NCBI GenBank assembly: GCA_965178125.1
Contig: OZ237776.1
Span: 248,001-312,000, forward strand
Length of the DNA stretch: 64,000 bases
Direction of reading: 5' to 3'
Origin: Bilabrum cf. latius
Taxonomy: Eukaryota
Shown here: piece by piece, positions 1 through 38,849 of the stretch
How the letters are laid out: every line of letters starts with the position of its first letter
How positions within the stretch are numbered: position 1 is the first letter of the stretch
Notes under the pieces: model-generated
What the model saw: the letters and a program-made list of their open reading frames with translations, nothing else
Databases searched by the model: none
What the model was told of the DNA's origin: nothing
Translations under genes and position numbers: made by a program

Positions 1-60
1 TGGTTTCCCATTAAGACGCAATTTGGTTCTTTGGGGTTCCATAAAATCGATTTCGGGCAT
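1..60 (-). CDS. 5' end of a further element gene (partial, MPEIDFMEPQRTKLRLNGKP...)
   Basis: ATG at 60-58 with frame open to the window edge; preceded by the same 32-bp motif found upstream of the helicase. Confidence 0.55.
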   Translation of the reverse strand, partial: MPEIDFMEPQRTKLRLNGKP

Positions 61-79
61 TCTATAGTATCTAATATAT

Positions 80-111
80 TATAGAATACGATAATTATTC
101 TTAAGGTACGA
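80..111 (-). promoter_or_regulatory. Conserved intergenic motif, copy 1 (putative element promoter with TCTA core)
   Basis: Plus-strand TATAGAATACGATAATTATTCTTAAGGTACGA, 29/32 identical to 1791-1822; lies between the helicase stop and the next ATG. Confidence 0.65.
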
Positions 112-117
112 ACTCAC

Positions 118-1776
118 TCACTTCTCAATTTTACAGAGGAATTTGGAAAGTTTTCCTTTTTTGCTTGGAGGGTTTTCTTTTATCCATTTTTGAATAGCGA
201 TGCTATTCTCAACACTCAGTTGTTTCTGGATTTTCTTATGGACTTTTTCCGTCGGTGTAATCTCCTTTTCCAATTCCATCTATTCAATCGTTTCCTACTG
301 CTATGCGACTTGTTTCTGTAGTTCTCTAATCTATTCTCGAAGAACATCCACCTCGGATTTTGCTTTTTCCATCTCAGCAGAATGACGAAGTGCCTAAAAC
401 TTAGATTGGAAGCCTTTTAGTAAGTCTGCGTGTTTCACATTAAATTCTTGTTTTCTCTATTTGTTCATCGTTGAATGAACACCCACCTCTGACAATAGTG
501 TTTTAATCATAGGTGTACCAAGGTTCTTCACTCTACCGTTCAGTTCCTACTTTAGATAATTGCGGAATTCCAAGACTGTCATTTTAAAATCTCTGCCTTC
601 GTCCAGCCACTCTTCTTTTAGAATTTTTAAAACCGGATGTGCGCCATCAAGAATTCCTTTGTAAAAATTCTTTGATTTTGGTGCGAATTGTCCTGTAAAG
701 TCTGGTGATTTATCATAGATTTCAACCAATAACATATAAAATGCCTTAGCCACTTCTGGATTTTCTGTAAAACGTTTTAGTGTTGTAAAGTATTCTTTGT
801 CTCCTTTCTTTGATGTATTCACATCCAAAACACAATATCTACGGATTTCCTCGGTGATTTTGATTGGACTATCATTCGTATCAATAATTAGATTGAATGT
901 ATTCGGACGACTTTCGGATTTGACAAACTTCTCATTACAGGAAAAGTGTTTTTCCGTAATAAGATTTCTTAGTGTTGCCTACATGGCGTCCCAAATAGTT
1001 GGCGAGGCTTTTGGAATTTCATTAAAATTGACTAATAGTTTCCCGTCCAGAATTGAGTTGAAGGCGTCGGGTTGAAGCATCTTGTGTGTAAGCGTCTATA
1101 GTGTAAGGGTATATCCGAGTAGTTTTCTCATAAGGAAGGTAATAATCATCGATTTACCAGTTCCTTGTGGAGATTTCAAATATAGTGCTGTTCCCAACTT
1201 CTTTCCGCCCACAATAACGTGAGCCAACCATTTCATCACAAAATCACACTATTCTTTGTCTTCTGAAGTCCACACCTTCTGGATATGTTCATAAATCATA
1301 GTCGCGCCTGCTTTTGCGTCTTCGGATAAATCCTCTATGTTTCCACAGTTTTCCCGTGTAAGTATAGGTGAACCCATAACGTTAATTGTTTGATTGTCGT
1401 AATCCACGGTAGGTGAATTAAATTTTCTTACAATCGTAAATACGTCGGTATTCTCATTTAAGAACCAGTCTCGTGCTGACCAAGTCTTTACTCTTTTGTT
1501 GCCCACAATCGCGTAAATACAGTGTCCCCCAATCAGGTAATTTTCAGTAATATTTTTATTCGTAAGGAACTACCAGACTGGTTTCTGGGGTTCGTCATCA
1601 CTTATGTTATTCCGATTTAATTCAGATGCTATTAGAAAATACACCCCGCCACCTTGCTCGTGGGTGCGGTAGAAGTATTGTCTAAGGTATTGAATACATT
1701 CCTCTTGTTTTCCGGCATTACATAGGTCCATAAGGCTTTTTGACGAATACGCTTTAGTCGGCAGAGTGAATGACAT
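118..1776 (-). CDS. Superfamily 3 (D5-like) helicase with C-terminal coiled coil, ~552 aa with TAG=Gln
   Basis: One frame from ATG 1776 to TGA 118 with 11 in-frame TAG and no TAA/TGA. Walker A SPQGTGKS, Walker B KLLVNFNE, motif C NLIIDTN, then RRYCVLDV and GDKEYF. The tail reads EQIRELQKQVAQQQETIEQMELEK. Confidence 0.88.
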
Positions 1777-1790
1777 TTTTGTTGTTGTAC

Positions 1791-1822
1791 TATAGAATAC
1801 GAAAATAATCCTTAAGGTACGA
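1791..1822 (-). promoter_or_regulatory. Conserved intergenic motif, copy 2 (putative element promoter with TCTA core)
   Basis: Plus-strand TATAGAATACGAAAATAATCCTTAAGGTACGA; the minus-strand TCTA lies ~16 nt upstream of the helicase ATG. Confidence 0.65.
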
Positions 1823-1833
1823 TACGGGGCATC

Positions 1834-2889
1834 TCAATTTTCTATATCCCACTCCAAAATTAAATTAGGAGCAATTTCTTGGATTTTATTCTTTGGTTCC
1901 CACGTCCAATGTTCTGGTTCTGGAAAATCTTTCCATTCGATTTGATACTCTGTTTCGTTCTCGGATTTTATCTTTTTTGGGAGAAAGATTGTCTGAGCAT
2001 CTCGGTTATTGTCCTCATTATCAAAGTCGATAATCTGTAATTCCTCTTTTGTATAAGCCACTAAATCGTCCTAATCCACAACATATAAAGGTGGTTGTTC
2101 GGGTCTTAATAACACTTTAGTAACCGTTTTGATTTCTGGATTATAGCGTAAATCGGAAGCACGAAAATTTCCGGATAATTTTTGCTGTAAATTTGTAGCC
2201 TTTCTGGGTTCTTCTAATGGTATACGAACTCTTGTACCCTCTTCCAATATATTACAAGCGTCCCCTTTACACTACGTAAAGTCGAAGTGTTCTGGGGGTA
2301 AAGGTGGTTCTTCTATATACTTTTCCAGTTGATATTCATTATAGTTTTCAATGATGTTTGGAAGCATATCCACCCATTCTACGCTTTCATTACCTGTATT
2401 TAACTCATTAACGTTCTATAGGGTAAATATGGCTTTTCCCAACGTTTTATTTAGGTTTTCCACTAATGCCTGTTGTCGGTGGCGACCTGCTTTATTTCTT
2501 CGTACAAATACATCGGTCTCTTCTAAATATCTTTGTAAAGCGTTAAATTCTTTTCCATTATCTATTTCCAAACGGTGCTGCGGTTTCTGGACATTACCAC
2601 GATTGAAAATCTTTTTTGATGCCTTTAATACTTCGTTCTAACGCTTGGTTTTGAGCGGTTCAGCATCGGCCTACTTTGTATGTAAATCAATAGCAGTTAA
2701 TGCGTATTTATAATTATTGTCGTGGGGTAATGATAATAAATCCATTTGTACCACTTGGTGAGGTTCTGGTACATTTACGTGGGGTCGATTTACTCCTTTG
2801 GGTCGTTTTGGTCGTTTCATTAAATTTACAATACGACTGTTGGGATAAATGTTTAGGGATTGTAATATTCTTTCAAAGGCGCTACTCAT
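1834..2889 (-). CDS. Retroviral-type (rve, DDE) integrase with C-terminal chromodomain, ~351 aa with TAG=Gln
   Basis: ATG 2889 to TGA 1834 with 5 in-frame TAG. Catalytic triad in QMDLL, LEIDNGKEF and GRHRQQALVENLNK. Chromodomain-like EYQIEWKDFPEPEHWTWEP at the C-terminus. Confidence 0.9.
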
Positions 2890-3022
2890 TTGCTATATAG
2901 TTCTTTAATAGAGGTATGCTTTTCCTTGCTTAATTTTAATATTTCTTTGTATCCTATATTGTCAAAATTTTTCAATCAATTTTTGTGTTTTTAATTGGAA
3001 AACAATTATAATTTGTTTTTTA

Positions 3023-3368
3023 TTTTCCTTTTAATTTTTATGGTGGCATCATAGGAATTACAACATTTAATTTTAATCTTTGAAAAAGATATCAAAAGAG
3101 CGGAGGGCAAAGCCCGAGCATCTTGGGAACTTAATTTATTTTTTCTAAGTCTCTTATAATTGACCTGTAAAATTGACAAGTTTTTTGGGGACTTTTCGAA
3201 AGGGACTTAAAATACGTTTTCGTTTTCCTTTTAATTTTTATGGTGGCATCATTGGAATTATAACATTTAATTTTAATTGGAAAATATATTTATTCTTTCT
3301 AAGTCTCTTATAATTGACCTGTCAAATCTCTCAATTTTTGGGGGACTTTTCCAAAGGGACTTAAAATA
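3023..3368. repeat. Imperfect direct repeat pair (~3023-3215 and ~3223-3368) in the element terminal region
   Basis: Both copies start TTTTCCTTTTAATTTTTATGGTGGCATCAT and end GGGGACTTTTC(G/C)AAAGGGACTTAAAATAC. Copy 1 has an extra segment with a GGGC-AAA-GCCC hairpin. Confidence 0.85.
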
Positions 3369-3452
3369 CAATTATAATTTGTTTTCGTTTTCCTTATAAT
3401 GTATCATCTCTTGGGTAATCGGTTTGGTTGCTTCGGAGAACAATTTAGTCGC

Positions 3453-3522
3453 TTGGGAAATCCTTGGGAAATCCTTGGGAAATCCTTGGGAAATCCTTGG
3501 GAAATCCTTGGGAAATCCTTGG
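3453..3522. repeat. 11-bp tandem repeat (TTGGGAAATCC) x6
   Basis: Perfect tandem copies read directly; followed by a 12-bp TCGGTTCATCGG duplication. Confidence 0.95.
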
Positions 3523-3972
3523 TCGGTTCATCGGTCGGTTCATCGGTTTGTCGCTTGGTGTAACTACCTTGTTCTCTTGATAAAATACCTTGTTCTCTTG
3601 GGAAAATCCTCGGTTGGTCTCTTGGTCTCTTGGGAATTCATCCTTTCGTTCCTACAGCAAACACAGAGAGGTTTTTGACACTTGGTTAATTTCTTCATTT
3701 TTTCCTACTTTACTAAAACATCTCTGTCTTTGCTGTTAGAGTTTATAAGGGGGATAAAGATTAGAATTCTTCAATTTACCCCTACTTCGTAGGAGTAAAT
3801 TTTATATCTGAAAATGGGTACATAGAGGGGTTCTATAGGGGTTCTTGGGGAACCCCTTGGGAAATCATCTAGGTTTATAGGGAAAACACTTGAGTTGCTA
3901 AATATGCCTTTAAAGGAGGGGCGAGCGTAGCGTAGCCCTCGTCCTCAACGCTTGGTGTACCTACCACCACCT

Positions 3973-6750
3973 GTTGTCCCCCCCGTTGGCGATCGCCCAA
4001 CAGTCGATAACGGTGGGTCAACCTGCAGAAACCACTACGTGCTCCTGTCTCTCATGGCAAGAATGCAGCACGCCTAGGCTGCCGCAGTGGCTAAGAAATA
4101 GCCAAGAAGATCTGTGGGTGATGACAATGACGCAGCGAGCAGTCCTACCATGCCTGGTAGCAGTGCGCCCAACTCAAGCACAAACGACATAAAGCATGCA
4201 TTCCCTAGCATCCGGGCAGAAGAGGACGCAGCGAGCATATGGCATGCGAGGATTCGGAGGCCGAACGAGCTGACCGTGCCTGAGCTTACAGTGCTGCTGG
4301 TGCTGGCTGCAAGCACAATGTACCCGCTCGCCTTCCACGGAACCAGGTATATGGGGCTTCGTCAGGACACGGCAGAGTACATGTTCATCGTGTGCGACAT
4401 CACCGTGCTGCTCCTGCGATACGTGCTCATGGGTGTAGTCGTCGTGTACGACGGCGCTGCGTTGTCAAGGCTTGCGGGAGAGGCGGAGGCGTGGAAGCGA
4501 GAAGCCGCCGATGCCCGCCTCAGCACCATCCAACAGTTCACCAGGTACATCTTCCACGAGGCCCGGGTGCCACTTCAGGCGGTGTCACTGTCGGCGCAGG
4601 AGCTGCAGGAAAGCCTCAAGAAGATTCAGTACAAGGCTGCAAGATTGCAACGCATGAGCAGCCGAACCCGAACCAATCCCTAGCTGCTGAATCGAGCCAA
4701 ACACGGGGCAAACGTAGATCAGCCCGTAGGTGCGTATCATGTGCCAATGTCCAGTGAGGATACCACCCATCAGAGGTTTCTAGGGTCTTCAACGGATGAA
4801 CCGCAGCCTTTTGTGGATCCCACAGCCATAGAAAGGGACGGAGTACCGAGGCGCCGTGGCAAAGGCACCGGCCTCTTGCTCAACTGCAGCGCTCTCACTG
4901 AACGGGTGGATGATGCAACAGAAGTGATACAGCTGCAACAGGAAGGGTGCAAGGGACTGCAGTGCATCTTCGACGACGTGCTCGAGGCCCAGCGCATCGA
5001 GCAGGGCAGGCTCAGGCTAAGGGACGAGGTAGTAGACCTTCACGAACTACTACACTCTCTTGGCAACGATAATGAGCTTGACCAGCGTCCACGATTTGCT
5101 CCATCGGTCGAGCTACTGGTAGGAACGCCAAGATACATACGTTGTGACAGGGGTCGCCTTCTATGGGCACTGTCCTAGCTCACTGCAGCGGCTGGGGCCC
5201 CCAAGGACCGGGCATTGGCGGAAGCAATTTCGAGCCAGGACGCGGTACCACCGCGCGGTGCAAAGTGGTCCGCACCCGAATTGGAACCCAAATCGAGGAT
5301 CGCGGTGCTATGCACCTGCAATACTAGATAGGACCGAGATCCAGTCGATACGAGCGGAAGCCTGCAGATGCTGGGTGACGCTAGCCCTACAACCAGCAAG
5401 CAGAATCTCTATTCTCAGGCACAACTGGTAGTGGCAGGAAAACCCAGCCTGAAGGCTGCGATATCAATGTAGCACGCATCAACCAAAAAAGGTAGTACGA
5501 GTAAAGAGGGCTGTCGTATTGGCAAACGAAACATATCTGACGACACTCCGTGCCGGTTCACTATCGAGGTCACAGACACTGGATGTGGAATGGCACAAGA
5601 TGACATCAACCAGCTCTTCACGCCCTACAAGCAGACCAGACACGGAGTAGAGTACACGGGGTCTTCCTCCGGTCTGGGCCTGTACATCTCCCGCGGGATC
5701 GCTCGATAGATGGGGGGCGATCTGGTGGCATCGAGCGAGGGAGAGGGCAAGGGCAGCGTGTTCACGTTCGAGTTCGAGGCCAAGATCGCACAGGATTTCA
5801 CGAGCTCTGTCGGTGCCGTAACAGAAGCAAGTGGTAAAGTAATCGACAAGGGGTCTGTAGAAGGAACCAAGACTAGCCAAGAGGGCAGCCGTGGATCCCC
5901 AGTTCTAGCTGCACTGCAACCCACTGGCATTCACCGACATGCTGCAGGGTCAGCGTGCTCTGCCATGGAGCAACGGGTTGCGACTGCAGGCCTTTGCTTC
6001 GCCCAAAGTGCAGCTGGCCATTCAATTGATCAGCACGAAGGTACATCGGGCCGTAAAGACCCAGGTGCGTTACCCCGAGCACCAGGTCCTGGCTTGATTC
6101 ACGGGCCTCAGGAGGCTCGACCGGAGCATGGCAGTGCATCTGAGTCAGCCTCGCGCAGCTGTACCACGGCTGTGAGGGTAGTACCCCTTCCAGCAGTAAG
6201 TGGTGGACAGCCGAGTGAGGGTCGACTTCATACAAGTGCAACGAATGTCACGGAGACCCTAGGTATACCAACAGACAGGGCTGCTGTCGGTGCCGATGAT
6301 TCGGTACGTGAAGCCCGAAGAAGCGATGCAATCAATCCGGATCGCTCATTGCATGCATGCAAAGCTTGGTGTCTCATTGTGGACGACGTGCCCACCAACA
6401 GGAAACTGCTCGCCAGGGGCATGCGCAGGCTCGGATACACCGTGCACCAGGCCAAGGACGGGCAGAAGGCAGTTGAGGCGTGCCGGGCCCGGGCCATGGA
6501 GGCGGGGCCGGGGGTGGAGTGCCTGGGCCTGATCACGATGGACAAGTCGATGCCAGTGATGGACGGCGTGGAGGCGACGCGGTCGATCCGTGGAGAGTTC
6601 GGGTCTCGGTTTGTGATTGTGGGCCTGACTGGAGATGCTGCAGGCCCCGAAGCATATGAATTTGTGGCGGCAGGACTTGACGACGTGCTAGGCAAGCCGG
6701 CAAGTGCAGGGGATGTTGTACAGTGGTTGAATCGCTTCATAATGCCGTGA
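3973..6750 (+). CDS. Hybrid histidine kinase 1 (TM-HisKA-HATPase-receiver), 5'-truncated at the element junction
   Basis: Frame open from 3973 to TGA 6750 across TAG only. H-box YIFHEARVPL, G-boxes VTDTGCGM and SSGLGLYIS, receiver LIVDD...ITMDKSMPVMDG...GKP. Lacks the N-terminal TM block seen in the two paralogs. Confidence 0.85.
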
Positions 6751-6850
6751 AACCGGAAATACACGGAGCCGATGATCGCCGCCGGCGCCGCGGCGGCAGC
6801 CGCCGGCGATCGGAAATATACTCTCTCGGCGTTGAGCAGCCACGACTAGA

Positions 6851-9800
6851 ATGGCGGCTTGGGACGAATATTCTGTAGTCCAATTTTGCGTTATTATCAT
6901 GGCGATAATAGTAACTACCTTGTCGATCGCTGATGCAGCACAGTGTGACATTGGGGGGGCGTATGAGCGCCAAGCACCGATGTCGTGCAGCTCGGTGCCA
7001 ACCCGATATTTCGCAAAAGTCGTACGGCTCGGACTAACCTCGTTCGGTTTTGCTCTCGCAATACCGTGTGCCTTCAGTTTGATGCTTTGGACCGGGCAAA
7101 ACGTCAGGGTTCTCTTCGCAGCGTGCTTAGTTGGCAACGTATGTGTGAGGCATTCAACTGTCTTAACGCTAAGGTATTCCGCCACGTTTCCTTCCGTGTA
7201 CATACATGCAGTATAAGGTTATTGCTATCTTGCAGATTGGTGTGATTCTGACGAATCTTGCGAATGGATGGACCGGTTTTGAAGTAGTTGAGGGAAGACC
7301 GGTCGACAACCAGCGACAATACTTCGACGCGTCGCTCATTATGGCAATATTCATCGACGCTCAGATTGCGACTGGTATGCGAAAGAATAGAGTTGTAATT
7401 GGAGGCTCCGCCGCGTCTGTAATGGTACTCATTTCTGCTTCGATGCCCTGGATGCCGGAAGGGAGGTACACTGCTGTCCCAATGCAAGCTGCCATGCTTG
7501 CATTGATGGTTTTGAGCGGTGTATTCATCCTCGAAATAATTAAAGGGTCTGTTGATTACTTCGTAGAGGGTACGTTGTAGGCCGTGCTACGAGCATGCTG
7601 CCGAATTGTAGAGCCGGCTGACGACACGCAACAAAATTTCGCTCCAGATGCAGCGGAGCAAGCTGATCAAGACGGAGCAAGAAAGAAATCGGCGAGCAGA
7701 ACTACGAATTTGTATTTATTCGACGATGCGGCTGTCTCCAATCCGCCTCCTGGCCACCTCCGAATCTTGCTCGCGCCTACGAGCTTCTCGTCGTCCGCGC
7801 CCCGCTGGCAGGAGGACTAGAGATCGAGAGCAACTCACGCTCAGTAGAATGGAATGGGGCATAATAAATGTCATTTGCAGAAGATGAGGATGCCTTGGGA
7901 GTTCACAGTATCTGAGTGGGCGCTCCTGTCTGCCCTCGGTTGTAGCCTGCTCTATCCTGTGCAGTACTACGGCACGCGCTATTTCGGTATGTCTCTGGAA
8001 ACGGCGGATTTATGCTTGCTTGGCTTTGATGTGTGCCTCGTGACTGCCAGGCTGGTCTTGTCCGTCGGTATCGTGGTCAATGACGCCATCGCCGTCCGTC
8101 AAGAGGCAGCCGCAACTGCTTAGTGGAGGGAAGCAGCCTCCAAGGCCCGCCTTAGCACCATCCAGCAGTTCACCAGGTACATCTTCCACGAGGCCCGGGT
8201 GCCTCTTCAGGCGGTGTCGCTGTCGGTGCAGGAGCTGCAGCAGTCTTTCGACCGTCTTGATGCAAGGGCGTCTGGCATCCGGGAGCAGCTGCAGCGTGCC
8301 TCGTCCACAATGAGCCGGCTTGAAAAAAACATACCCGAGTTATCTCCTGAAGACCGGGCAGACCAGCTACTAGCTCAAAGGACCCGCATGATTCTGGAGT
8401 CAGGTAGCCAGGAGAGGGCACTGACGCAGGAGGAAGGGCTAGGGTCGGACGGACCCGTGCTGGTCGACTCACCGGCTATGCACGTGCGCGGGAGGCTGTG
8501 GGATCGACCATACATGACAGATGGGTCTGCATCTGGCGAGTTCGATACCGGTGAAATACAACCACTGCAAACTAATGGCCGGAACGCAGCGTTCTTCCGG
8601 CGCTTGCTGCAGCACCTGGAACCTATGCTTCGTAGCGTGGCTGACTCACGCGAGGTATTCGAGCAGCAGCAGGACGGCGCCAGTGGCCTCCAGATCATAT
8701 TCGATGACGTGCTCGAGGCCCAGCGTATCGAGCAGGGCAGGCTCAGGCTCCGAAATGACGCATTTGACGTACGTGCAGATGTAGTCAATCCGTGCATGGA
8801 GGAGGTCCAAACGGCGGCTGGCGAGAAATCAGTCACGCTGCAGACGGAGGGCCCAGAGAGCACTACTCCTCTGGTCGGCGACCCTGTCAGGGTGCAACAT
8901 GTGCTACGCAACCTCTTATCGAATGCATTGAGGTACACCTCGGCAGGTGGATCCGTCTGCGTGCTGACCCATATCGGTGGAGCTGGTGCCACATTTGAAA
9001 GGGGAAGCGGCTCTACCGCCATGATGGTCTCCTCCGAATCAGCTACTGGGCAGCATAACAACGCTGAAACAACCATGGACGTGGCCTCTACCGGAATGCC
9101 TCGCTTGTTTTTTTCTGAGTTGAATCCATCAAGCTCCGGTCGATCGTATGCTGCCAGTGACACAGGATGGTCCACTAGCCGAGGTAAAGCACTACACGGC
9201 AGGTCTGTATCGGTTGGTTCTGCGCCTGGCGCTCAAGACGCATCCGTTCGGATTCAAGTCACTGATACTGGGTGCGGCATCAGCCACGCGGCACTTGGCT
9301 TCATTTTCCGCCCCTATCAGGGGGCCAGGCACGGCGTAGAGCACACGGGGACATCGTCGGGGCTTAGCTTGTACATCTCGCGCGGGATTGCTCGTCAGAT
9401 GGGTGGTGATCTGCTGGCATCGAGTGATGGGGAGGGTAAGGGAAGCGTGTTCACGTTTTGGTTCAAGTGTACCCTAGACGTGTCCGGCCAGACGACCGTG
9501 AAACACTGGGAAGCATCCCCTCGCACAACCGCAGGCATTGGGCCTACGAAGACCAACATGTAGGCACACCACGCGATAGGCATGACACAACCCGATGGCT
9601 TGAGTCGTGGTTTGGTTCATTTAGGCGCCAAAGCTGCCGATGCCGCAAGTCTTAAGCCTGTAATGTACTCGGGACCCAATCCGGCGAAAGGAGAAAGCCG
9701 CGGCTCTGCGATTGATCGCGAGCTGTTTGCAACGACTAGACGTAGTCGGCGCCGAAGCACCGCAGCGCAGCTGGCGCCAACTAGCGCAGCCACGGGACGA

Positions 9801-10220
9801 AAACACAACTTCATTGAGCTGCGCGCCTGGTGCCTCATCGTGGATGACGTGCCCACCAACAGGAAACTGCTCGCCAGGGGCATGCGCAGGCTCGGATACA
9901 CCGTGCACCAGGCCAAGGACGGGCAGAAGGCAGTGGAGGCGTGCCGGGCCCGGGCCATGGAGGCGGGGCCGGGGTTGGAGTGCCTGGGCCTGATCACGAT
10001 GGACAAGTCGATGCCAGTGATGGACGGCGTGGAGGCGACGCGGTCGATCCGTGGAGAGTTCGGGTCTCGGTTTATGATGTTTGGCCTGACGGGGGATGCT
10101 GCAGGCCCTGAAGCCGATGAATTTATGGCGGCAGGACTTGATTGCGTGATAGGCAAACCTGCAGGTGCCAGTGATGTGCATGAGGCTCTTCTACAACTCG
10201 GCTAGCCAGGGTTGAAGTGA
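6851..10220 (+). CDS. Hybrid histidine kinase 2 (multi-TM sensor, HisKA, HATPase, receiver)
   Basis: Exon 6851-7138, predicted phase-0 intron 7139-7211 (GTATGT...TGCAG), then one frame across TAGs to TGA 10218-10220. N-box NLLSNALRYT; H-box, G-boxes and receiver intact. Confidence 0.85.
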
Positions 10221-10386
10221 AGGGTGCGTGCATGGGAGGTAGATAGCTAGATTCGCTGGCAGCGGATGAAAATACATCCGATGGCATAAAACAAATAGTT
10301 TTTGCTGACTAATTTCAGCCGAATCCTAATCCAGTGAGTACCGCACAGATCCACAAATAGCCCAGCCGGGATCCTGACTACCTGGT

Positions 10387-13300
10387 TTACGAGTCCGACC
10401 GGCACAGGCCAAGACCTGTTGCGTGCACTTCTTTCGCGCTCGCTGGCTTGCCCAGCACCGCATCCAGCCCCTCCGCCTTGAACGCCTCCAAGTCCTCGCC
10501 CAAAGCATCCCCCGTCAGGCCCACAATCATAAACCGAGACCCGAACTCTCCACGGATCGTACGCGTCGCCTCCACGCCGTCCATCACTGGCATCGACTTG
10601 TCCATCGTGATCAGGCCCAGGCACTCCAACCCCGGCCCCGCCTCCATGGCCCGGGCCCGGCACGCCTCCACTGCCTTCTGCCCGTCCTTGGCCTGGTGCA
10701 CGGTGTATCCGAGCCTGCGCATGCCCCTGGCGAGCAGTTTCCTGTTGGTGGGCACGTCGTCCACGATGAGGCACCAATCCCTAATCGCCAAAGAAGTGAT
10801 GCCAGACTCAACTTTCTAGCCTACCCTGCGCATAATTCCCGCCCCTGGGGCTGGGGCAGCCGCTGAGTCGGGCTGTGCCATTGGCACTCTGCCCCTGCCA
10901 CCGGAGGCCCCACCACCTCGTGCAGTGCTGTCAATGTCTGCCTGGCCCGTGTACGTTGCTAGAATAGCACCACCATCCGCAGAATCAATGGATGCATGCT
11001 GCTGTCCGCCGTGCACACGGTCGGATAATTTGAAACGGGAAGAGTGCGGAAGCTTCAGCGCGGCTTCAGCTTCTTCGCTGCCTGGCTGGACAACGGCGGC
11101 ATCCACCGATCCTTTGGCTACATCAGCACGATGCCGCTCAGAAAGGGTCCTATTCGAGCGATTAAGGCCAACGTCCCCGCTGCGTGAAATGGACGATCTG
11201 GAATCCAAGGGACCGTGCTGCATGGATTGTGTCTTCTTGGCATTGGATGCCCCAATGACTTCCACCTTGTGGCTACTGCGGCTCGTGCTGCTTTGCAGCT
11301 GGAGTGCGGGCACCACTCCAGATGTGCCGCCTCTCTTGCCATCGTATAGCGCATCTTTTTCTTTAGGGTGTTTGGAGCTGTCTTGCACCGGTGATGAGAG
11401 CGCTTGCCCAGCAGCTGCAGTCGACTCGCGCACTCGGCTCGACTCACTGCCAGAGCTCTCCGAGTCGTGCGTACGCGATGCAACCGCAGTGGATTTACCC
11501 AAACCGAGGCCAATGCTGCCGTCTTTTACGTCTTCAGCTGAGCGCCCCTGCAACATGGCAGGCGCGACCTTTGCCAGTGACACAGGTATTCCCGAGGCAG
11601 TGCTGCCTTCTGACCTAGCGCTGAGAGGCACGACGGCAGCGAAACTGCCGTGATTGCCGCGGCGCGAGCTTGCCTTGCCTTCCGATTGGCGCACGGAGTG
11701 CATCCCGTCGGCTTCGTGCACGCTCGTGGCGCTCTGCCGGGTGTTCTCCACTGTGGAATTTGAAGCATGCCGCTGGCTCTGGCTCGTGTACCCCACGCTG
11801 TTGAAGCTCAGCTGGGACTCGTTGTCGTCCACCATGTCTCCCAGCAGCTCCATTCCCTGTGCGATGTGGGCCTCGAAGTTGAACGTGAACACGCTGCCCT
11901 TGCCCTCTCCCTCGCTCGATGCCACCAGATCGCCCCCCATCTGACGAGCGATCCCGCGGGAGATGTACAAGCCCAGACCGGAGGAAGACCCTGTGTACTC
12001 GACTCCGTGTCTGGTCTGCTTGTACGGCGTGAAGAGCTGGTTGATGTCATCTTGTGCCATGCCGCAGCCAGTGTCGGTGACCTGTATCGCTAGGCGGACC
12101 ATCGACTCCCGAATGCTGCCCGAGTCCCTAGTGTCTTCAGGCTGGGTCTGTCGCCTGTCCAAGGCCACGGCTATGCCGATCTGACCACCCCGCAGCGTGA
12201 ATTTCAGCGAGTTCGACACCAAATTAGCAAGCACTTGCTTTATCCGAACTGGGTCCCCGCGGATGTGAGAAGGCACGTCCTGCGCTGCATCCGCCCGAAG
12301 ATTCACGCCGTGCTTCTCGGCTGTGCGTCGGAACGTTGACACAATGTCTTGCAGCACCTGCGCCACGTCAACCACCTCGTCCCTTAGCCTGAGCCTGCCC
12401 TGCTCGATGCGCTGGGCCTCGAGCACGTCGTCGAAGATGCACTGCAGTCCCTTGCACCCTTCCTGCTGGGACCGGAGCACGTCACGTGCATCATCGATAG
12501 CAAGCGCCATGCTGCCTTGCAGACGGTCAACCTGCCCAGCATCCACATAGGCTGCCAGTGGATCGCCACCACTTCCATTCATTACCTGAACTGCGCGGCC
12601 TTGCAACCGAGCTTCCCCGTCAGATTGCCCCCCTTCGTCGCCTTCCCCCATCTACGAGTGTATGGACGACCTAACTAGCCGCTTGAGCCTTTTTCTGTCC
12701 TTTGAGATTTCCTTGAGGCTTTCCTGCAGCTCCTACACCGACAGAGACACCGCCTGAAGAGGCACCCGGGCCTCGTGGAAGATGTACCTGGTGAACTGCT
12801 GGATGGTGCTGAGGCGGGCATCGGCGGCTTCTCGCTTCCACTTCTGCGACTCGGCGGCTTGTCTCGATACTGCCATGACATCGTTGTGCAGCACAGTCAG
12901 AGCTAGAGCGCAGCGGCTGGCCACGAATGCGCAAGCGGCTATGGCGGCAATTTGCTGACCTTGATCGTGGGAGCCTCCCAACCAGCGAGGGGCGAAGTAG
13001 GAGGACTGGTACACCAGCCCGACCATGGTGATGAGCACAATGAGTGCCTGGGTCAGCCCGAACGGTTCAGGTTCTTCAGGCTCATCGCGGGCGGCGACTG
13101 CACTTGCGCCGGTACTTTCTTCATCCCCAGGGTAATCGATGCCGATGCTGATGAAAGAGGACCGGAAGGACGCTCGCTTTGGCCGCGGCAGGTGAGCGAG
13201 CACAGGAGCACTTGCTCCAGACGCTGCTCGGCCATCGGCGGGGCGGGCATCTCCCTGCTGCGAGCTGCTCACACTCCCAGATTGCGATTGACTGACCCCT

Positions 13301-14119
13301 TGAATCATGGAATCACTGTCACGCAAGCCTATTGTCCCGCTTAGTGCACCCGCATCGGGACGACAGCAGCAGGAGCACCCGTCGTCCAGTGTCCAAGAGA
13401 GGTACGGGTCCAGGGCCCGGTCAACACCGCCTCGAAACATTTCAAGCGAGACATAGAAGAACCCCACAATGTAGGCTAGTACAGAAACGACGAGGATGAG
13501 CACGTCAGTAACCTGACTGCCGGAAAAGGCCTTCAAGACACACACTAGCCAGATTCCCATGCCTCCGGCGGTGATTCCAGCAAGGCGCCTCCTGCGCGAG
13601 TGCATTGCAATAGGGATTTCATTTGCGATGCACAGCAAGGACGCCCCGCTGTACAACCACAGCTGTGATAGAGTGGGACAGCCAAACGAAAGCCTAGCAG
13701 TTGAGAGCCCGGCCCCAAGCTGTACTAGGCACAGCCATGCCTGCGTCCGTGAAGTGGGCCTCTAAACTACACTATAGGAATAGCAATCACTGGCTTGCTC
13801 CAGAACAGGCTGAGATGCTATGCGAGTCCTTCTGACTTACCGACGCATTTGTAAACGTTGACGTAAGCAGGAACAGCTTGATTCGGCTGGCTGACCAGAC
13901 GTACGCACCAAACGCCGAAAAGCAAGCATAAATACATACAACACCTGAGATTGAAAACCAGATGGCCGGAACCTGGACATCAACACGAGTCTCGATTGTT
14001 TCGCCGATTTGCACGAGTCTATCTGCCACAGAAAGTACCGCAGTGACCAGTGCAGTCACGGCTAGCGATCCATGAAATAGAATTTCTTCGAATGACACGC
14101 TCTATTCCTTTCGCGCCAT
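10387..14119 (-). CDS. Hybrid histidine kinase 3 (multi-TM sensor, HisKA, HATPase, receiver)
   Basis: ATG 14119 (MARKEQSVSFEE with TAG=Q). Predicted intron from GTAAGT at 13840 to ~13762 (acceptor uncertain). One frame across TAGs to TAA 10387. N-box NLVSNSLKFT intact. Confidence 0.85.
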
Positions 14120-20046: not shown

Positions 20047-23000
20047 ATGGTGAGGGTGCCACACTGGCGCCACAAGGTGCAGACTTGCTGCAAGCGTATG
20101 CATGCGATCCAGGTGCTTATGCGCTTAGCGACTTGTACGATGTGCTATGTTGTACATTTTGAACTTGCCGTCTACTTCGGCATGGCTCACTCCAGTACAA
20201 CTACCAGAAAGGTGGCGTGGGCGTTTCGAAGCGCTGGCGACTCGATGAATTCGGGGGCTTCAAGGACAGACGGCCGTAGTACCGCTGCTTTATGTAAAAT
20301 CTTTGGCATTTCCCATGCCCCTGTGCCATGTGATGTCATGGGTCGCCATATTCGCTGAGCCCTGAAGCGTATCGTAGCTGAAGTGCCGTTGGGTGCTTAC
20401 GGATTCCTTGTGCTGTGTCTAGCAGACCGGCAAAATTGAAGCTTTTGATGTTCTACTTGTCATTCTATGAATACCGCAGGACACCAAGCCATTAGAATAC
20501 AAGAAGCTCACGCAGCGCGGAGACAAGCCGAGTAAACGCTCGGGCCACACGCTCACCTGCCTTTCCGACGGCACCGCTGTATTGTTTGGGGGCCTCTCAC
20601 TGCAGGAACCCGCTGGACCCAACAATGAGCTATACACTGCGACCATAAGCGATTGTGAGTCGTGCAGTGGCCCGTGTATTCTAGATCTCGTGATTCACCC
20701 TGGGGCGAGCTGTCCCTGCTGCTCGGCGTTTCATAGTGATTCTGCGTGACGGCTGGAGGAGCATTGCAATGCGATTGATGCGTATGATGCTGTAAAGTTA
20801 TTTGCCACTTGCATTTTTTTCCCTGGCTACTCTTCTAGTCTTTCGCGCGCCGCAGCCGACATCAACTGGAGCCGAGTACCACCCGCCAAGGCGCGGCAGT
20901 GCCCTGCACCCCGATGGAGGCACTCAGCCACGCTCCTACCTGACGGGCGCATCGTCGTGCTGGGCGGATTTGCCTCCAGCACCACTCGACTGAATGACCT
21001 CTGGCTCCTGGAGCCGGGCAAGGGCACCTGGCAGCAGCCCGCGAGCGTACTCGAGACATCCAGGTAGGCAGTGCACAAGTCGGCTGCATCGGCCAACGAC
21101 GACGACGAGGCTCTCGCCCTGAATGACTCGAAACGGGACTATCTCGACGACCTGGGTGGCGGCGGGGATGCCGCCCAGGCAGGCATCGCGCCGGTGGACG
21201 CGTGCGAAGACGCCCCCACGCCCCGGGGGGCGCACTCCGCCGTGCTGGTGGAGGGGAGCGTGTGGGTCTTCGGGGGGTACGGCGGTTCCGGTTTCGGAAG
21301 GAGGGATTTCTCCGACGTGAGGCGATTCGACCTGGGCGGGGGAGATGCCCCGGGGGCTGCCACCGGAGGGGCCGCAGCGGCAGGGGCGGGGGCGGGGGCT
21401 GCAGACCCAGGCACTGCCGCATCTTCGGGCGGGGTCAAAATCCACGCCAGGGATGGCGGCGCGGGCCAGGAAGCCGCGGGCATCGTGATCGACGACGACG
21501 CGATGGCATGGGTGCCCGTCGACCAGCCAGACGAGGAGTAGCCGCATCCCGAGGGGAGGTCGGGCCACAGCGCTGCAGCCGACAGGCACAGGCTCCTAGT
21601 GTACGGTGGATGGAACGCTTCGCGAAGGTTCGATGACACCTGGGCGCTGGACACGCATACAATGTCGTGGGAAAAGATCGAGACTGCGCCGCTGGGGCAC
21701 GCGGGCTGGAATGCCTCATGCGTTGGTGTGCCCGCAGTCCCGTCGTGGCTCGTGTTCAGCTTCGGCGGCAGCCGTGCACCCATGGACGAGGAGGGCGAGA
21801 GCAAGACGGAGGCGGGTGACGAGACCTTCTCCAACGAACTGTCCATGCTCAACACGGCCATGAAGAGGTGGGAGCCACTGAGCCCCGAGGGCAAGGCCCC
21901 ACGGGCGAGATCCGACGCGGGCATGGGCTTCGATCCCACCAAGCAGAGGCTCATCGTGTTCGGCGGGTGGGCAAACCGGTGGTTCGGAGACGCGGTGTCC
22001 ATCGACGTGTCCTCGGCTGTGGGCCCACCGTACGCAGTGTCTGCCGTGGAGCCGGCACTAGGGCCGGTGACGGGAGGCACCAAGGCAGTGGTCAGGGGTT
22101 AGGGATTCCCAGCCAGGGAGGGCACCAGCATGAACGCGAGGTTCTTCTCCCAGGACGGGCGAAAGTTCGTCGACGCGCAGGCCAAGACGATCGACTCCGG
22201 GTCGCTCGAAGTGGAGACGCCCGACATGCAGGAGATCGGGCCTGGGATCGCAGAGCTTCGGGTGCAGGTGAGGGGACAGGCGCTGACCATCACCGCAGCG
22301 AGCTTCAACTTCTTCGACGTCACGACGTGCGAGAAGTCCCTCTGCTTCGGCGGGGGTCTGGTGCCGGGCGTGGTGGTTGCTACCGGAACGGGGTTCTTCA
22401 TCCAGTCCCGGGACGGCTCCAACCTGAACCGGACCACGGGTGGGGACGAGTACGAAGTGCGCATCATGGCGGGGGGGCAGGGGCCAACAAAGCGGAGGCA
22501 GCTGACCGAGGAGGACGACGGGTGCACTGTCAAGATCGAGGACCTCAACAACGGTATGCACAAGGTGGACTACTTCATCAGGCGCATCCCAAGAGAGGCG
22601 ATCGAGGCATGCGAGCACGAGAAGAAGAGGAAAGGGGGCAACACAAAGGCACTGCCGTCCGTTGAGATCGAAGTAGAGTTCAAGGGAACGTTCGGTGGCG
22701 TGGCCGGCCTGGTCCGCGGATGTCCGTTCACTGTCTCGCTGGTGGATCCCGTGAAGCAGGAGGACAGAGAGGCAGCCGAGGCGGCCGAGCTGCAGATCGG
22801 CAAGGAGGAGTGGCAGAAGGCGGCCGAGGCCGAGCAGGCTGCATCGCTGGAGGCCAAGAAGAAAGAGGTGGAGAAGCAGCGCGCATTGGCCAAGGAGGAA
22901 GCGGAGGAAGCCGCCCGTGAGGCCTGGATGGAGCACGACGGGCCGCCGCCCGAGGCGAAAGCAGCTGCTGCAGCGGCCGCCGCCGGAGCTGCAACTGCAA

Positions 23001-37916: not shown

Positions 37917-38849
37917 TTTGAATTTGAAGTGGACTTGCGAGTGGTTGCTTTGCAAGCCGGAACAGGCTCGCCGGCGGTAAAGGATTCGGAGCTACGACCG
38001 ACGTCGTGTGCAGGCCCCCCATCGGGCCCCTCGGGCTACTACAGCTACCCAGAGCATTTTAGCATGAGGCGGCTGGCTGTCTTCGTTGTTTGACCCCCCC
38101 CCCCACCCCCCACCCCCAACTCCCAACCCCAAACCCCCACTGGCAAGCTGCCAGCGGTGGTGCCAAGGCGTGGTGCCAAGGCGGTAGTGCCGTATCCGAT
38201 CTTAGCATCATTCGTGTCGATCAGCCATGCCGGGGCTGCAAACTAGTACAATCGAGTCTGCTGGTGGCCCCCGTGTTCTGTTGGGTCCTCTGGAGTCGGG
38301 GCAGGAACCAGCGGCCCGGGGTATGCGATCTAGACAGGCAGTTATCTCTGGGACAGGTCATTGAATCAGTCAGTCATGAGTTCTAACCAAAGCTCGCAGC
38401 ATCCGGCAACGCGCGCACAGGCCGCCGACCCATGACGGTGCCTACGGCCATCAGAGGGGGCACCGGTCTCTCGTCCGAATGCAAGGCGGTTCATCCACCG
38501 AGTTGTCTGACTGCAGCGCAGACTGCGCATCGATACCATCGTAGTGGTTCCAACTCGTAGCAGCCCATCGATTTGCCCTCGATATGCCGGACAACGGGTA
38601 TTGTCCGGATGCACGCTTTGAAAGAAGAAGATCCATTGGCACGAAGTTGTGTGGTGTGCCATTCTTGCGGGTCGCAGGGCCGAACAATAGACAATACACC
38701 CTGAGCTATAGTTTTATTCGTATCAAACATAACAATTGTATCGACGAAACCTTGTTGTATCGCCCATAGTAAAAGGGAACCTTGCGAAACGGCCGTCGTT
38801 CCTTCGGCACGAGTACATAGGCCTGATAGTACGCTGAGTTCCTCATAAC

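What the first reader, a model, noticed from the sequence alone, without database searches (positions are those of the whole stretch)
118..2889. Endogenous virophage/Polinton-like element recoded to the host's UAG=Gln code
Seen: the helicase (11 TAG) and integrase (5 TAG) are full length with intact catalytic motifs and no frameshifts only if TAG is read as sense. Examples are VWTSEDKE*CDFVMKWLAH and E*IRELQKQVA*Q*ETIE*. TAG density is far higher than in the host dynein (16 in ~900 codons versus 8 in ~4,450), consistent with AT pressure turning CAG into TAG. Inference: a long-adapted, probably still functional viral element locked to hosts with this code. Standard gene callers would miss it or call it decayed, and any helper giant virus would face the same code.
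Basis: partly seen in the sequence, partly recalled or inferred. Interest (0 to 1): 0.92.

Follow-up and report, generated by a model that had tools for sequence, protein, structure and literature searches.

The report
Integrated virophage that reads TAG as glutamine
The first 4 kb of the window is one end of a multi-copy virophage integrated in a GC-rich flagellate genome; its genes, like the host's, read the stop codon TAG as glutamine, so the virus is tied to hosts with this rare code.

Summary
On the minus strand, a 552-aa D5/VapE-type helicase (118..1776, 11 TAG) and a 351-aa rve+chromodomain integrase (1834..2889, 5 TAG) are open only if TAG is sense. Neither has an in-frame TAA or TGA, and both end in TGA.

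- **Host code:** the host (60% GC, long intronless ORFs) also reads TAG as Gln.
- **Element extent:** the element (36% GC) runs from the window start to 3984.
- **Integration:** assemblies of three public runs continue from 3984 into several different GC-rich flanks, so it is integrated at multiple sites.
- **Selection:** another copy differs at 31 listed coding sites, 23 of them synonymous. One is TAG->CAG.
- **Relatives:** six metagenome contigs carry the same integrase-helicase-pPolB order and also need TAG=Gln.
- **Capsid genes:** the longest contig (L019) adds Sputnik-type major and minor capsid genes, an ATPase and a protease-like ORF.

The family is therefore a true virophage with a mavirus/EMALE-like replication and integration module.

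Capsid genes of this particular copy lie off the window. Activity and a helper giant virus are inferred, not shown. Endogenous viral elements sharing a host's variant code have a precedent in Streblomastix. A UAG-only virophage clade was not found in the literature searched.

The parts
1..60 (-). First 20 codons of the next gene, a protein-primed DNA polymerase B (pPolB). It runs off the window start.
   Evidence: Its N-terminus MPEIDFMEPQRTKLRLNGKP aligns with the N-termini of the ORFs that follow the helicase in all 6 metagenome relatives (MITFEDPTRTNLKLNGRP...). The L019 ORF matches Pfam DNA_pol_B_2 at E 2.1e-9. A 5735-nt contig of run X5 extends 2830 nt beyond the window start (record 9).
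77..111 (-). Conserved intergenic motif upstream of pPolB; putative promoter.
   Evidence: It is 89% identical to 1788-1822 (family D3). The same CTTAAG..CGT..TCTATAGTA core lies between integrase and helicase and between helicase and pPolB in L019, and between helicase and pPolB in L020, L021, L023 and L024.
118..1776 (-). Superfamily-3 (D5/VapE-type) replicative helicase, 552 aa, 11 TAG read as Gln, TGA stop.
   Evidence: Pfam DUF5906 at 57 bits (cutoff 27.6) and VapE-like at 25.2 bits (cutoff 25). PHROG DNA primase at 4.6e-19. Full length against relatives of 534-552 aa.
1788..1822 (-). Conserved intergenic motif upstream of the helicase; putative promoter.
1834..2889 (-). rve-family (DDE) integrase with a C-terminal chromodomain, 351 aa, 5 TAG read as Gln, TGA stop.
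   Evidence: Pfam rve at 38 bits (cutoff 32.6) and Chromo at 26.5 bits (cutoff 25.1). D50, D110 and E144 are invariant in a 30-sequence alignment. 355 homologues score below 1e-30, most of them about 350 aa.
2890..3984 (.). Non-coding terminal region of the element. It holds ~200-nt direct repeats (3017-3077/3217-3277 and 3123-3215/3277-3369), an 11-nt tandem array (3452-3528) and a GC-richer last ~80 nt. It is probably one terminal inverted repeat.
   Evidence: for the repeats. In one search, X5 depth is 50-58 over 3543-4004 against 30.6 in the genes, which fits two copies per element but is only suggestive. Contigs stop fitting at 3984.
3984..3985 (.). Junction between virophage and host.
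   Evidence: table 7: contigs of X1, X5 and X8 carry loose ends behind 3984/3985 with at least four different continuations. X5 record 16 (566 nt, 0 differences) runs from 3955 to 4520 across this window's junction. GC rises from 0.36 to 0.57.

Best explanation
Window 1-3984 is the right-hand end of an integrated, multi-copy virophage. Read inwards from the terminus, it has about 1.1 kb of repeat-rich non-coding DNA (probably a terminal inverted repeat), an rve-chromodomain integrase, a D5-type SF3 helicase and the start of a protein-primed DNA polymerase B. This is the replication and integration module of mavirus-like endogenous virophages. Its relatives carry a Sputnik-type capsid module.

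Shown here: the element sits in host DNA at several sites. Its genes are intact only with TAG read as Gln. The host uses the same code (UAG = Gln, with UAA and UGA as stops). Copies evolve under purifying selection. The whole virophage clade, at 56-57% helicase identity, shares both the code and a conserved upstream motif.

Inferred: the genes are translated by host ribosomes with a host tRNA-Gln that reads UAG, so TAG cannot terminate. TAG accumulates at Gln sites through C->T change of CAG under the element's AT bias. The integrase inserts the genome into chromatin, guided by its chromodomain. The TCTATAGTA-type motif is a promoter read by a co-infecting giant virus, as the TCTA motif is for mavirus and CroV. 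That would reactivate the provirus.
For: **Reading frames**
- 16 TAG, 0 TAA and 0 TGA in 903 codons, with P about 7e-22 for no TAA or TGA.

**Host code**
- 10 long host ORFs hold 88 TAG and end in TGA (8), TAA (1) or run off the window (1).
- In three paralogous histidine kinases, the 2 TAG columns with near-identical context both face CAG/CAG.
- Dynein TAG falls on the conserved Gln of FLFTDS-Q-I (Chlamydomonas and Tetrahymena both Q). A second TAG faces Q in Tetrahymena.

**Element code**
- A second copy has CAG where this copy has TAG, at helicase codon 410.
- Of the 16 window TAGs, 5 face CAA/CAG and 1 faces TAG in the L019 group. Relatives' TAGs face window CAA (helicase) and CAG (integrase Q140). 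Q140 is a column where 116 of 147 broad-family homologues have Q.
- TAG columns pair with Gln or TAG in 22 of 47 comparisons (47%). True Gln codons do so in 53%, and eight other residues in 1-8%. Gln is the best BLOSUM62 meaning (1.81, against E 1.05 and K 1.03).

**Integration and copy number**
- One search shows different flanks after 3984 in X1, X5 and X8.
- X5 depth is 30.6 over the genes against 2.0 on the unique host flank.

**Selection**
- 23 synonymous against 8 non-synonymous differences in the two genes, where 21% synonymous sites are expected. Binomial P is 2e-10 and pN/pS about 0.09. There is also an in-frame 3-nt insertion.

**Virophage identity**
- 6 of 7 metagenome loci share the integrase-helicase-pPolB synteny (in L023 and L024 only the helicase and pPolB ORFs lie on the fragment) and in-frame TAGs.
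- L019 adds an MCP (Pfam Sputnik_MCP_1st 5.5e-26, MCP_V20_C 6e-26; PDB 3j26_A 2.8e-34), a penton (3j26_N 2.8e-10) and an AAA ATPase. It has 41 TAG, 0 TAA and 0 TGA in 3841 codons.
- A standard-code IMG/VR relative, L005, has integrase, DUF5906 helicase, pPolB and an A32 ATPase.

**Motif**
-.
Against: - No capsid, ATPase or protease gene of this copy is visible. The window starts inside the element and no genome is held.
- The other end, a terminal inverted repeat and target-site duplications could not be checked.
- 10 of the 16 window TAGs face non-Gln residues in relatives (T, T, G, K, R, A, K, E, Y, M). Most lie in the poorly conserved C-terminal coiled coil.
- One dynein TAG faces Ile in both best PDB hits. 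One kinase-paralogue TAG faces A/K.
- No tRNA-Gln(CUA) lies in the window or in L019-L024.
- The variant list is partial (16 more sites not shown) and comes from contigs, not reads.
- One or more runs may be the source of the assembly, so the junction of this particular locus lacks independent support. Its bridging contig has only 30 letters on the element side.
- The L019 penton hit to Pfam V18-19 (23.7 bits) and the ATPase hits are below Pfam's cut-offs.
Confidence: 0.85

Rival explanations
1. It is a Maverick/Polinton-type self-synthesising element that propagates in the host genome on its own. It has no giant-virus helper and no virophage lifestyle.
For: Only integrase, helicase and the start of pPolB are visible. 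The rve + pPolB pair defines Polintons as much as mavirus-type virophages. It is multi-copy in the genome. No giant virus was seen.
Against: The syntenic relative L019 has a Sputnik-type MCP and penton. These mark virophages rather than Polintons. A conserved upstream TCTATAGTA-type motif precedes the genes, resembling the giant-virus late promoter motif reported for mavirus and type-4 EMALEs (PMC8547959, passages read).
Confidence: 0.1
2. The AT-rich 4 kb is a free virophage or contaminant contig wrongly joined to a host contig. This would make it an assembly chimera rather than an integration.
For: The GC jump is abrupt, from 0.36 to 0.57. The element lies at the very start of the window. 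The contig bridging this junction has only 30 letters on the element side and depth 2 (record 16).
Against: Contigs from three runs of three studies leave the element at the same base (3984/3985) into at least four different GC-rich continuations (table 7). That pattern is expected for many insertions and not for a single misjoin. Element and host also share the rare TAG = Gln code.
Confidence: 0.04
3. The copy is a decaying pseudogene and the TAGs are genuine premature stops. Alternatively, TAG encodes another residue or is ambiguous between stop and sense.
For: Standard gene callers break both genes. 10 of the 16 TAGs face non-Gln residues in relatives.
Against: Only TAG interrupts the frames: 0 TAA or TGA where about 49 are expected. 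pN/pS is about 0.09. TAG and CAG/CAA exchange within and between lineages. TAG columns behave like Gln columns. None of 10 complete virophage genes (2 in the window, 8 in L019) ends in TAG.
Confidence: 0.02

Closest known systems
Mavirus and the low-GC endogenous mavirus-like elements (EMALEs) of Cafeteria burkhardae
   Same: A low-GC element in a high-GC, intron-poor flagellate genome. It has many copies and no evident site specificity. An rve integrase with a chromodomain lies near one end, with a short primase/helicase and pPolB. A short conserved motif containing TCTA precedes the genes (PMC8547959, passages read; window).
   Different: All genes need TAG = Gln, and the host uses that code. 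In the relative L019 the capsid proteins are much closer in sequence to Sputnik V20 (E 2.8e-34) than to the mavirus MCP (6g43, E 6e-7). The gene order from the terminus is integrase-helicase-pPolB.
Sputnik virophage (capsid proteins V20 and V18/19)
   Same: The MCP and penton of the relative L019 match over nearly their full length.
   Different: From recall, Sputnik has a tyrosine-type integrase and no pPolB. Here the replication and integration module is of the mavirus/Polinton type, and the code is non-standard.
Endogenous Polinton-like viral elements of Streblomastix strix that use the host's TAA/TAG = Gln code (Bellas et al. 2023, PMC10120064; passages read). Also the Tlr elements of Tetrahymena, which that paper names; their use of the ciliate code is recalled.
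   Same: An integrated small DNA virus shares its host's reassigned stop codon. That paper takes this as a sign of long association.
   Different: Here only UAG is reassigned, and TAA still terminates 4 of 8 L019 genes. The element belongs to the virophage lineage, with a Sputnik-type MCP, rather than the Metamonada Maverick-Polinton group. A free-standing metagenomic clade shares the code.
TAG = Gln ('code 15') bacteriophages such as crAss-like and Lak phages (listings and abstracts)
   Same: Viral genes carry in-frame TAG read as Gln.
   Different: According to those abstracts, the phages recode against a standard-code host, some with their own suppressor tRNAs. Here the host itself uses the code, and no tRNA was found in the element or its relatives.

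Membership tests
Virophage (small dsDNA viruses with a Sputnik/mavirus-type morphogenesis module) | Virophage-type double jelly-roll major capsid protein | not testable with these tools
   This part of the window's element lies off the window and no genome is held. The syntenic relative L019 meets the feature: Pfam Sputnik_MCP_1st 5.5e-26 and MCP_V20_C 6e-26, and PDB 3j26_A 2.8e-34.
Virophage (small dsDNA viruses with a Sputnik/mavirus-type morphogenesis module) | Penton (minor capsid) protein | not testable with these tools
   Off the window. In L019 the Pfam V18-19 match is 23.7 bits, below the cutoff of 27. The PDB Sputnik minor virion protein 3j26_N matches at 2.8e-10 over residues 7-374.
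Virophage (small dsDNA viruses with a Sputnik/mavirus-type morphogenesis module) | FtsK/A32-type packaging ATPase and maturation cysteine protease | tested here: inconclusive
   Tested only in L019. The 324-aa ORF hits AAA_22, AAA_16 and AAA_14, all below their cut-offs. The 184-aa ORF has no Pfam hit, and its PDB hits are repeat-protein artefacts with no matched stretch. By eye it contains His and Cys motifs (GHW..., CGRHC) in the order expected for an adenain-like protease.
Virophage (small dsDNA viruses with a Sputnik/mavirus-type morphogenesis module) | Replication depends on a co-infecting giant virus | not testable with these tools
   The only hint is the conserved upstream motif.
Mavirus-type endogenous virophage / Maverick-Polinton replication-integration module | rve-family DDE integrase with an intact catalytic triad and a chromodomain | tested here: met
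   rve at 38 bits (cutoff 32.6) and Chromo at 26.5 bits (cutoff 25.1). D50, D110 and E144 are invariant in 30 sequences.
Mavirus-type endogenous virophage / Maverick-Polinton replication-integration module | [quoted passage not shown] | tested here: inconclusive
   Only 20 codons are in the window. They align with the N-termini of the pPolB ORFs of 6 relatives. The L019 ORF matches DNA_pol_B_2 at 37.2 bits (cutoff 25.8).
Mavirus-type endogenous virophage / Maverick-Polinton replication-integration module | Terminal inverted repeats and short target-site duplications | not testable with these tools
   Only one end is in the window. The terminal 1.1 kb is non-coding and repeat-rich. Its contig depth in X5 is about 1.6-1.9 times that of the genes, which is only suggestive.
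Mavirus-type endogenous virophage / Maverick-Polinton replication-integration module | Integrated in host chromosomal DNA, in several copies | tested here: met
   one element end (3984), at least four different flanks, in runs X1, X5 and X8.
SF3 (D5/VapE-like) helicase | DUF5906/VapE P-loop core above the curated thresholds, with Walker A, Walker B and an arginine finger | tested here: met
   One search gives the Pfam matches. GTGKS, NFNE, IIDTN and RRY lie in columns invariant among 4 homologues. The motif names are assigned from recall.
Nuclear code with UAG = Gln only (UAA and UGA remain stops) | In-frame TAG at Gln positions, while TAA and TGA still terminate | tested here: met
   Host. 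Element and relatives.
Nuclear code with UAG = Gln only (UAA and UGA remain stops) | tRNA-Gln with a CUA anticodon, and an eRF1 that ignores UAG | not tested
   The window holds no such tRNA (one doubtful tRNA-Lys only). The genome is not held.

The most novel reading that the evidence does not exclude
The window element and the six metagenome contigs represent the first recognised clade of virophages that live entirely in a UAG = Gln code. One TAG codon is shared across the whole clade, so the code is old within it. Their conserved TCTATAGTA-type promoter then points to an undescribed giant virus that must also express its genes in this code. The host would be a GC-rich, intron-poor flagellate lineage with a UAG-only reassignment. 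Together these would form a complete host, giant virus and virophage system behind a genetic-code barrier.
Probability: 0.4. Interest if true: 0.75.

Novelty: new variant of a known kind. Interest (0 to 1): 0.62.

Why it matters
Endogenous virophages are proposed as heritable anti-giant-virus defences of protists. A virophage lineage whose every gene needs UAG = Gln cannot express its genes properly in standard-code hosts, so the code acts as a barrier to host switching. Shared TAG positions give a way to date the association.

There is also a practical point. Standard-code gene callers and capsid screens will break such elements or score them as decayed. The same applies to any giant virus of these hosts.

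Finally, the element marks a host with a rare UAG-only reassignment, and it provides a candidate promoter motif for finding the helper virus.

Tried and rejected
- **Helicase search of IMG/VR**. It gave only one distant contig, listed twice as L001 and L002, at 29% identity. This was not followed up.
- **Pfam scan of the 5887-aa host ORF and the three kinases.** It failed on the length limit and was not repeated.
- **Motif search in IMG/VR** with CTTAAG N8-10 CGT NN TCTATAGTA. It gave 2 contigs with standard-code, phage-like ORF sets. I judged these chance matches.
- **L019 MCP against IMG/VR**. It found no relative, but the method finds close relatives only.
- **Terminal 1.1 kb against all loci and the rest of the window**. 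Only chance-level matches appeared, so the termini are not conserved with relatives and the window holds no second copy.
- **tRNA scans.** None was found in L019-L024.
- **Expression.** No RNA holder was listed, so expression remains unassessed.
- **Cover of the host flank.** X1 shows no cover of 4005-4466, and X8 covers only 3493-3984 of the element. Parts without cover are not used as evidence.
- **PDB search of two further dynein TAG sites**. They fell in non-conserved stretches and were uninformative.
- **PDB search of the L019 184-aa ORF.** It returned only TAL-effector and WD40 repeat artefacts.
- **Broad integrase family as a test of TAG meaning**. Four of the five window TAG columns are variable. 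The fifth (158) is M in 71 and Q in 58 of 148, so this is weak on its own.
- **Literature.** Searches found no paper describing a virophage with reassigned TAG. Supplementary files could not be read, so tables in PMC10120064 or PMC6905037 might list such cases.
Full report
**Observation**

The first two 2-kb bins of the window have 36-37% GC, and the other 30 bins have 54-65%. On the minus strand of the AT-rich part lie two ORFs that are open only when TAG is read as sense.
- ORF 118..1776 is 552 aa with 11 TAG.
- ORF 1834..2889 is 351 aa with 5 TAG.

With table 11 the longest pieces are 93 and 75 aa. Neither gene has an in-frame TAA or TGA, and both end in TGA. Base composition predicts about 32 TAA and 17 TGA in 903 codons, so the chance of none is about 7e-22. 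The five other frames each hold 9-34 of them per gene. This is not chance.

**What the two proteins are**

The first is a superfamily-3 helicase of the D5/VapE type. It matches Pfam DUF5906 at 57 bits against a cutoff of 27.6, VapE-like at 25.2 against 25, and a PHROG 'DNA primase' family at 4.6e-19.

The second is an rve integrase with a C-terminal chromodomain, at 38 bits against 32.6 and 26.5 against 25.1. In an alignment with 29 homologues, D50, D110 and E144 are invariant. Both proteins match their relatives in length.

A third gene starts at 60 on the minus strand and runs off the window.

**The host reads TAG as glutamine**

Read with TAG as sense, the GC-rich part holds long intronless ORFs.
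- A dynein heavy chain of 4429 codons has 8 TAG.
- A 5887-codon ORF has 34 TAG.
- There are three paralogous hybrid histidine kinases and several others.

With the standard code these break up. Of the ten ORFs, eight end in TGA, one ends in TAA and one runs off the window.

Among the three kinase paralogues, 19 alignment columns hold a TAG. Only two of these lie in near-identical context, and both face CAG/CAG. One in a half-conserved context faces A/K. The rest lie in unalignable regions.

In dynein, one TAG falls on the Gln of FLFTDS-Q-I, which is Q in both best PDB hits. One faces Q in Tetrahymena and A in Chlamydomonas, and one faces Ile in both. Two further sites lie in non-conserved stretches. 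So the host uses UAG = Gln, with UAA and UGA as stops.

**The element is integrated and multi-copy**

I laid the assembled contigs of four public runs on window 1-4600.
- The element stops fitting at 3984/3985 in runs X1, X5 and X8.
- Beyond that base the contigs continue into at least four different GC-rich sequences.
- A 566-nt contig of X5 with no differences spans 3955-4520, which is this window's own junction. It has only 30 letters on the element side.
- In X5 the summed contig depth is 30.6 over the genes, 50-58 over the last 450 nt and 2.0 over the unique host flank.

Depth of this kind is not a copy number. It does agree with many copies and with a terminal repeat present twice per element. 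One or more of these runs may be the source of the assembly, so the different flanks are the stronger evidence, not this locus.

The element therefore spans 1-3984, which is wider than the finding. Positions 2890-3984 are non-coding, with ~200-nt direct repeats and an 11-nt tandem array.

**Copies are under purifying selection, and TAG exchanges with CAG**

The contigs of X1 and X5 represent another copy that differs at 33 listed sites; 16 more sites were not shown.
- 31 of the listed sites fall in the two genes.
- 23 are synonymous and 8 are not, where 21% synonymous sites are expected. The binomial P is 2e-10 and pN/pS is about 0.09.
- There is also an in-frame 3-nt insertion.
- One difference turns helicase codon 410 from TAG into CAG.

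**Relatives show what the whole element is**

The helicase has three close database homologues, at 91, 57 and 56% identity. Their translations already carry Q at the TAG sites. They were probably called with a TAG = Gln model, so they are not independent evidence.

A scan of metagenome contigs with an alignment of those homologues gave seven loci. Six are close relatives, at 56-57% identity. All six show in-frame TAGs; four (L019-L022) carry the full integrase-helicase-third gene order and two (L023, L024) show helicase-third gene only, with 2, 4-6 and 8-10 TAG in integrase, helicase and third gene respectively.

In the longest locus, L019 (13 kb of a 15-kb contig, 40-47% GC), the standard code leaves no ORF above 283 aa. 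TAG = Gln gives nine genes:
- integrase (rve + chromo);
- helicase (DUF5906);
- pPolB (DNA_pol_B_2, 2.1e-9);
- two ORFs of unknown function;
- an AAA ATPase (hits below cut-offs);
- a 184-aa ORF with His/Cys motifs;
- a penton protein (Pfam V18-19 at 23.7 bits, below cutoff; PDB Sputnik 3j26_N at 2.8e-10);
- a major capsid protein (Sputnik_MCP_1st 5.5e-26; MCP_V20_C 6e-26; PDB Sputnik V20 at 2.8e-34; mavirus MCP at 6e-7).

These nine genes hold 41 TAG and no TAA or TGA in 3841 codons. Of the eight that are complete, four end in TGA and four in TAA, and none ends in TAG.

The window's truncated third gene (MPEIDFMEPQRTKLRLNGKP) aligns with the pPolB N-termini of all six relatives.

Sixteen IMG/VR contigs encode more distant, standard-code integrase homologues. 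I annotated two of them. L005 has an A32-type ATPase, pPolB, the integrase and an adjacent DUF5906 helicase that is 27% identical to ours over 340 residues. L003 has pPolB and a GIY-YIG gene next to the integrase.

**TAG means Gln in the virophage clade too**

Codon-level alignment of the window genes with the six relatives gives the following.
- Of the 16 window TAGs, 5 face CAA/CAG and 1 faces TAG in the L019 group. Ten face other residues, mostly in the variable C-terminal coiled coil of the helicase.
- Conversely, relatives' TAGs face window CAA (helicase) and CAG (integrase Q140). At Q140, 116 of 147 homologues of the broad, mostly standard-code family have Q.
- One helicase TAG is shared by all seven sequences, so TAG as sense predates their divergence.
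- Across clade representatives, TAG pairs with Gln or TAG in 22 of 47 comparisons (47%). Genuine Gln codons do so in 53%, and eight other residues in 1-8%.
- Gln is the best-scoring meaning (BLOSUM62 mean 1.81, against E 1.05 and K 1.03).

**Regulatory motif**

A 35-nt stretch is 89% identical upstream of the helicase and of pPolB. Its core, CTTAAG..CGT..TCTATAGTA, recurs between integrase and helicase and between helicase and pPolB in L019, and between helicase and pPolB in L020, L021, L023 and L024. TATAGTA-like cores precede most other L019 genes.

Hackl et al. 2021 (PMC8547959, passages read) report several matching features. A 'TCTA' motif lies upstream of mavirus and type-4 EMALE genes and corresponds to the CroV late promoter. 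Low-GC EMALEs carry the rve integrase near one end together with pPolB and a short primase/helicase. EMALEs have 30-50% GC in a high-GC host. The architecture here is the same. That this motif is a giant-virus promoter is my inference.

**TAG density**

The element has 1.77 TAG per 100 codons, and TAG makes up 32% of Gln codons. L019 has 1.07 (21%). The ten host ORFs average 0.54 (11%), with a range of 0.17 (dynein) to 1.23. The contrast with dynein alone exaggerates it.

**Mechanism: what is shown and what is inferred**

Shown:
- integration at several sites;
- intact genes only under TAG = Gln;
- the same code in the host;
- purifying selection;
- a virophage capsid module in syntenic relatives.

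Inferred:
- translation by host ribosomes and a host tRNA-Gln(CUA);
- integration guided by the chromodomain;
- reactivation by a giant virus through the conserved promoter;
- confinement of the lineage to hosts with this code.

**Comparison with what is known, and novelty**

The closest system is the mavirus/EMALE-Cafeteria association. The capsid genes of the relative are nearer to Sputnik.

An integrated virus sharing its host's variant code has a precedent. Bellas et al. 2023 (PMC10120064, passages read) note that the endogenous elements of Streblomastix strix use its TAA/TAG = Gln table. Paez-Espino et al. 2019 (PMC6905037, passage read) mention an ochre-suppressor tRNA in a virophage clade as a possible sign of reassignment in hosts.

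Five literature searches found no description of a virophage with reassigned TAG. Supplements could not be read. UAG-only codes are rare; the listing includes Panek et al. 2017 (PMC5304391) and work on phyllopharyngean ciliates. I saw only their titles and the starts of their abstracts.

I rate this as a new variant of a known kind: an endogenous virophage, here in a UAG = Gln code.

**Limits**
- The rest of this copy, its second end and the host's tRNA and eRF1 could not be examined.
- Expression is unassessed.
- The host's identity was not pursued.

Noticed in passing
window 3985-64000: The host is a GC-rich (54-65%) eukaryote with long intronless ORFs. It reads UAG as Gln while UAA and UGA terminate (88 TAG in 16389 codons of 10 ORFs). 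This is a rare UAG-only nuclear code. The lineage was not identified.
   Followed up: partly
window 3799-13836: Three paralogous hybrid histidine kinases with receiver domains lie side by side (3799-6750 +, 7173-10220 +, 10387-13836 -). They share near-identical blocks. The virophage end abuts the upstream region of the first.
   Followed up: partly
window 38838-56501: A single 5887-codon ORF with 34 TAG. It is too long for the Pfam tool, so its function was not examined.
   Followed up: no
window 56245-56320: ARAGORN calls a tRNA-Lys(UUU) inside the 3' end of the 5887-codon ORF. Rfam finds no tRNA at gathering score anywhere in the window. It is probably a false positive.
   Followed up: partly
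window 3493-3984 (run X8): Run X8 holds the terminal ~490 nt of the element joined to different flanks. None of its contigs was laid on the integrase or helicase genes. This could mean solo termini, a non-autonomous derivative or a diverged element with the same ends.
   Followed up: no
L019 5019-7879: Two ORFs of 381 and 477 aa lie between pPolB and the ATPase in the metagenomic relative. They have no Pfam match. The 381-aa one is Gly-rich at its N-terminus.
   Followed up: no
window 20750-21505: The dynein stop-to-stop ORF has no ATG in its first 251 codons. The true start, or an upstream exon, is unresolved.
   Followed up: no
L005 (IMG/VR), 5043-12828: A standard-code viral contig with an A32-type ATPase, pPolB, an rve integrase (35% identical to the window's) and an adjacent DUF5906 helicase at the contig end. 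It is a more distant relative of the same replication and integration module.
   Followed up: partly
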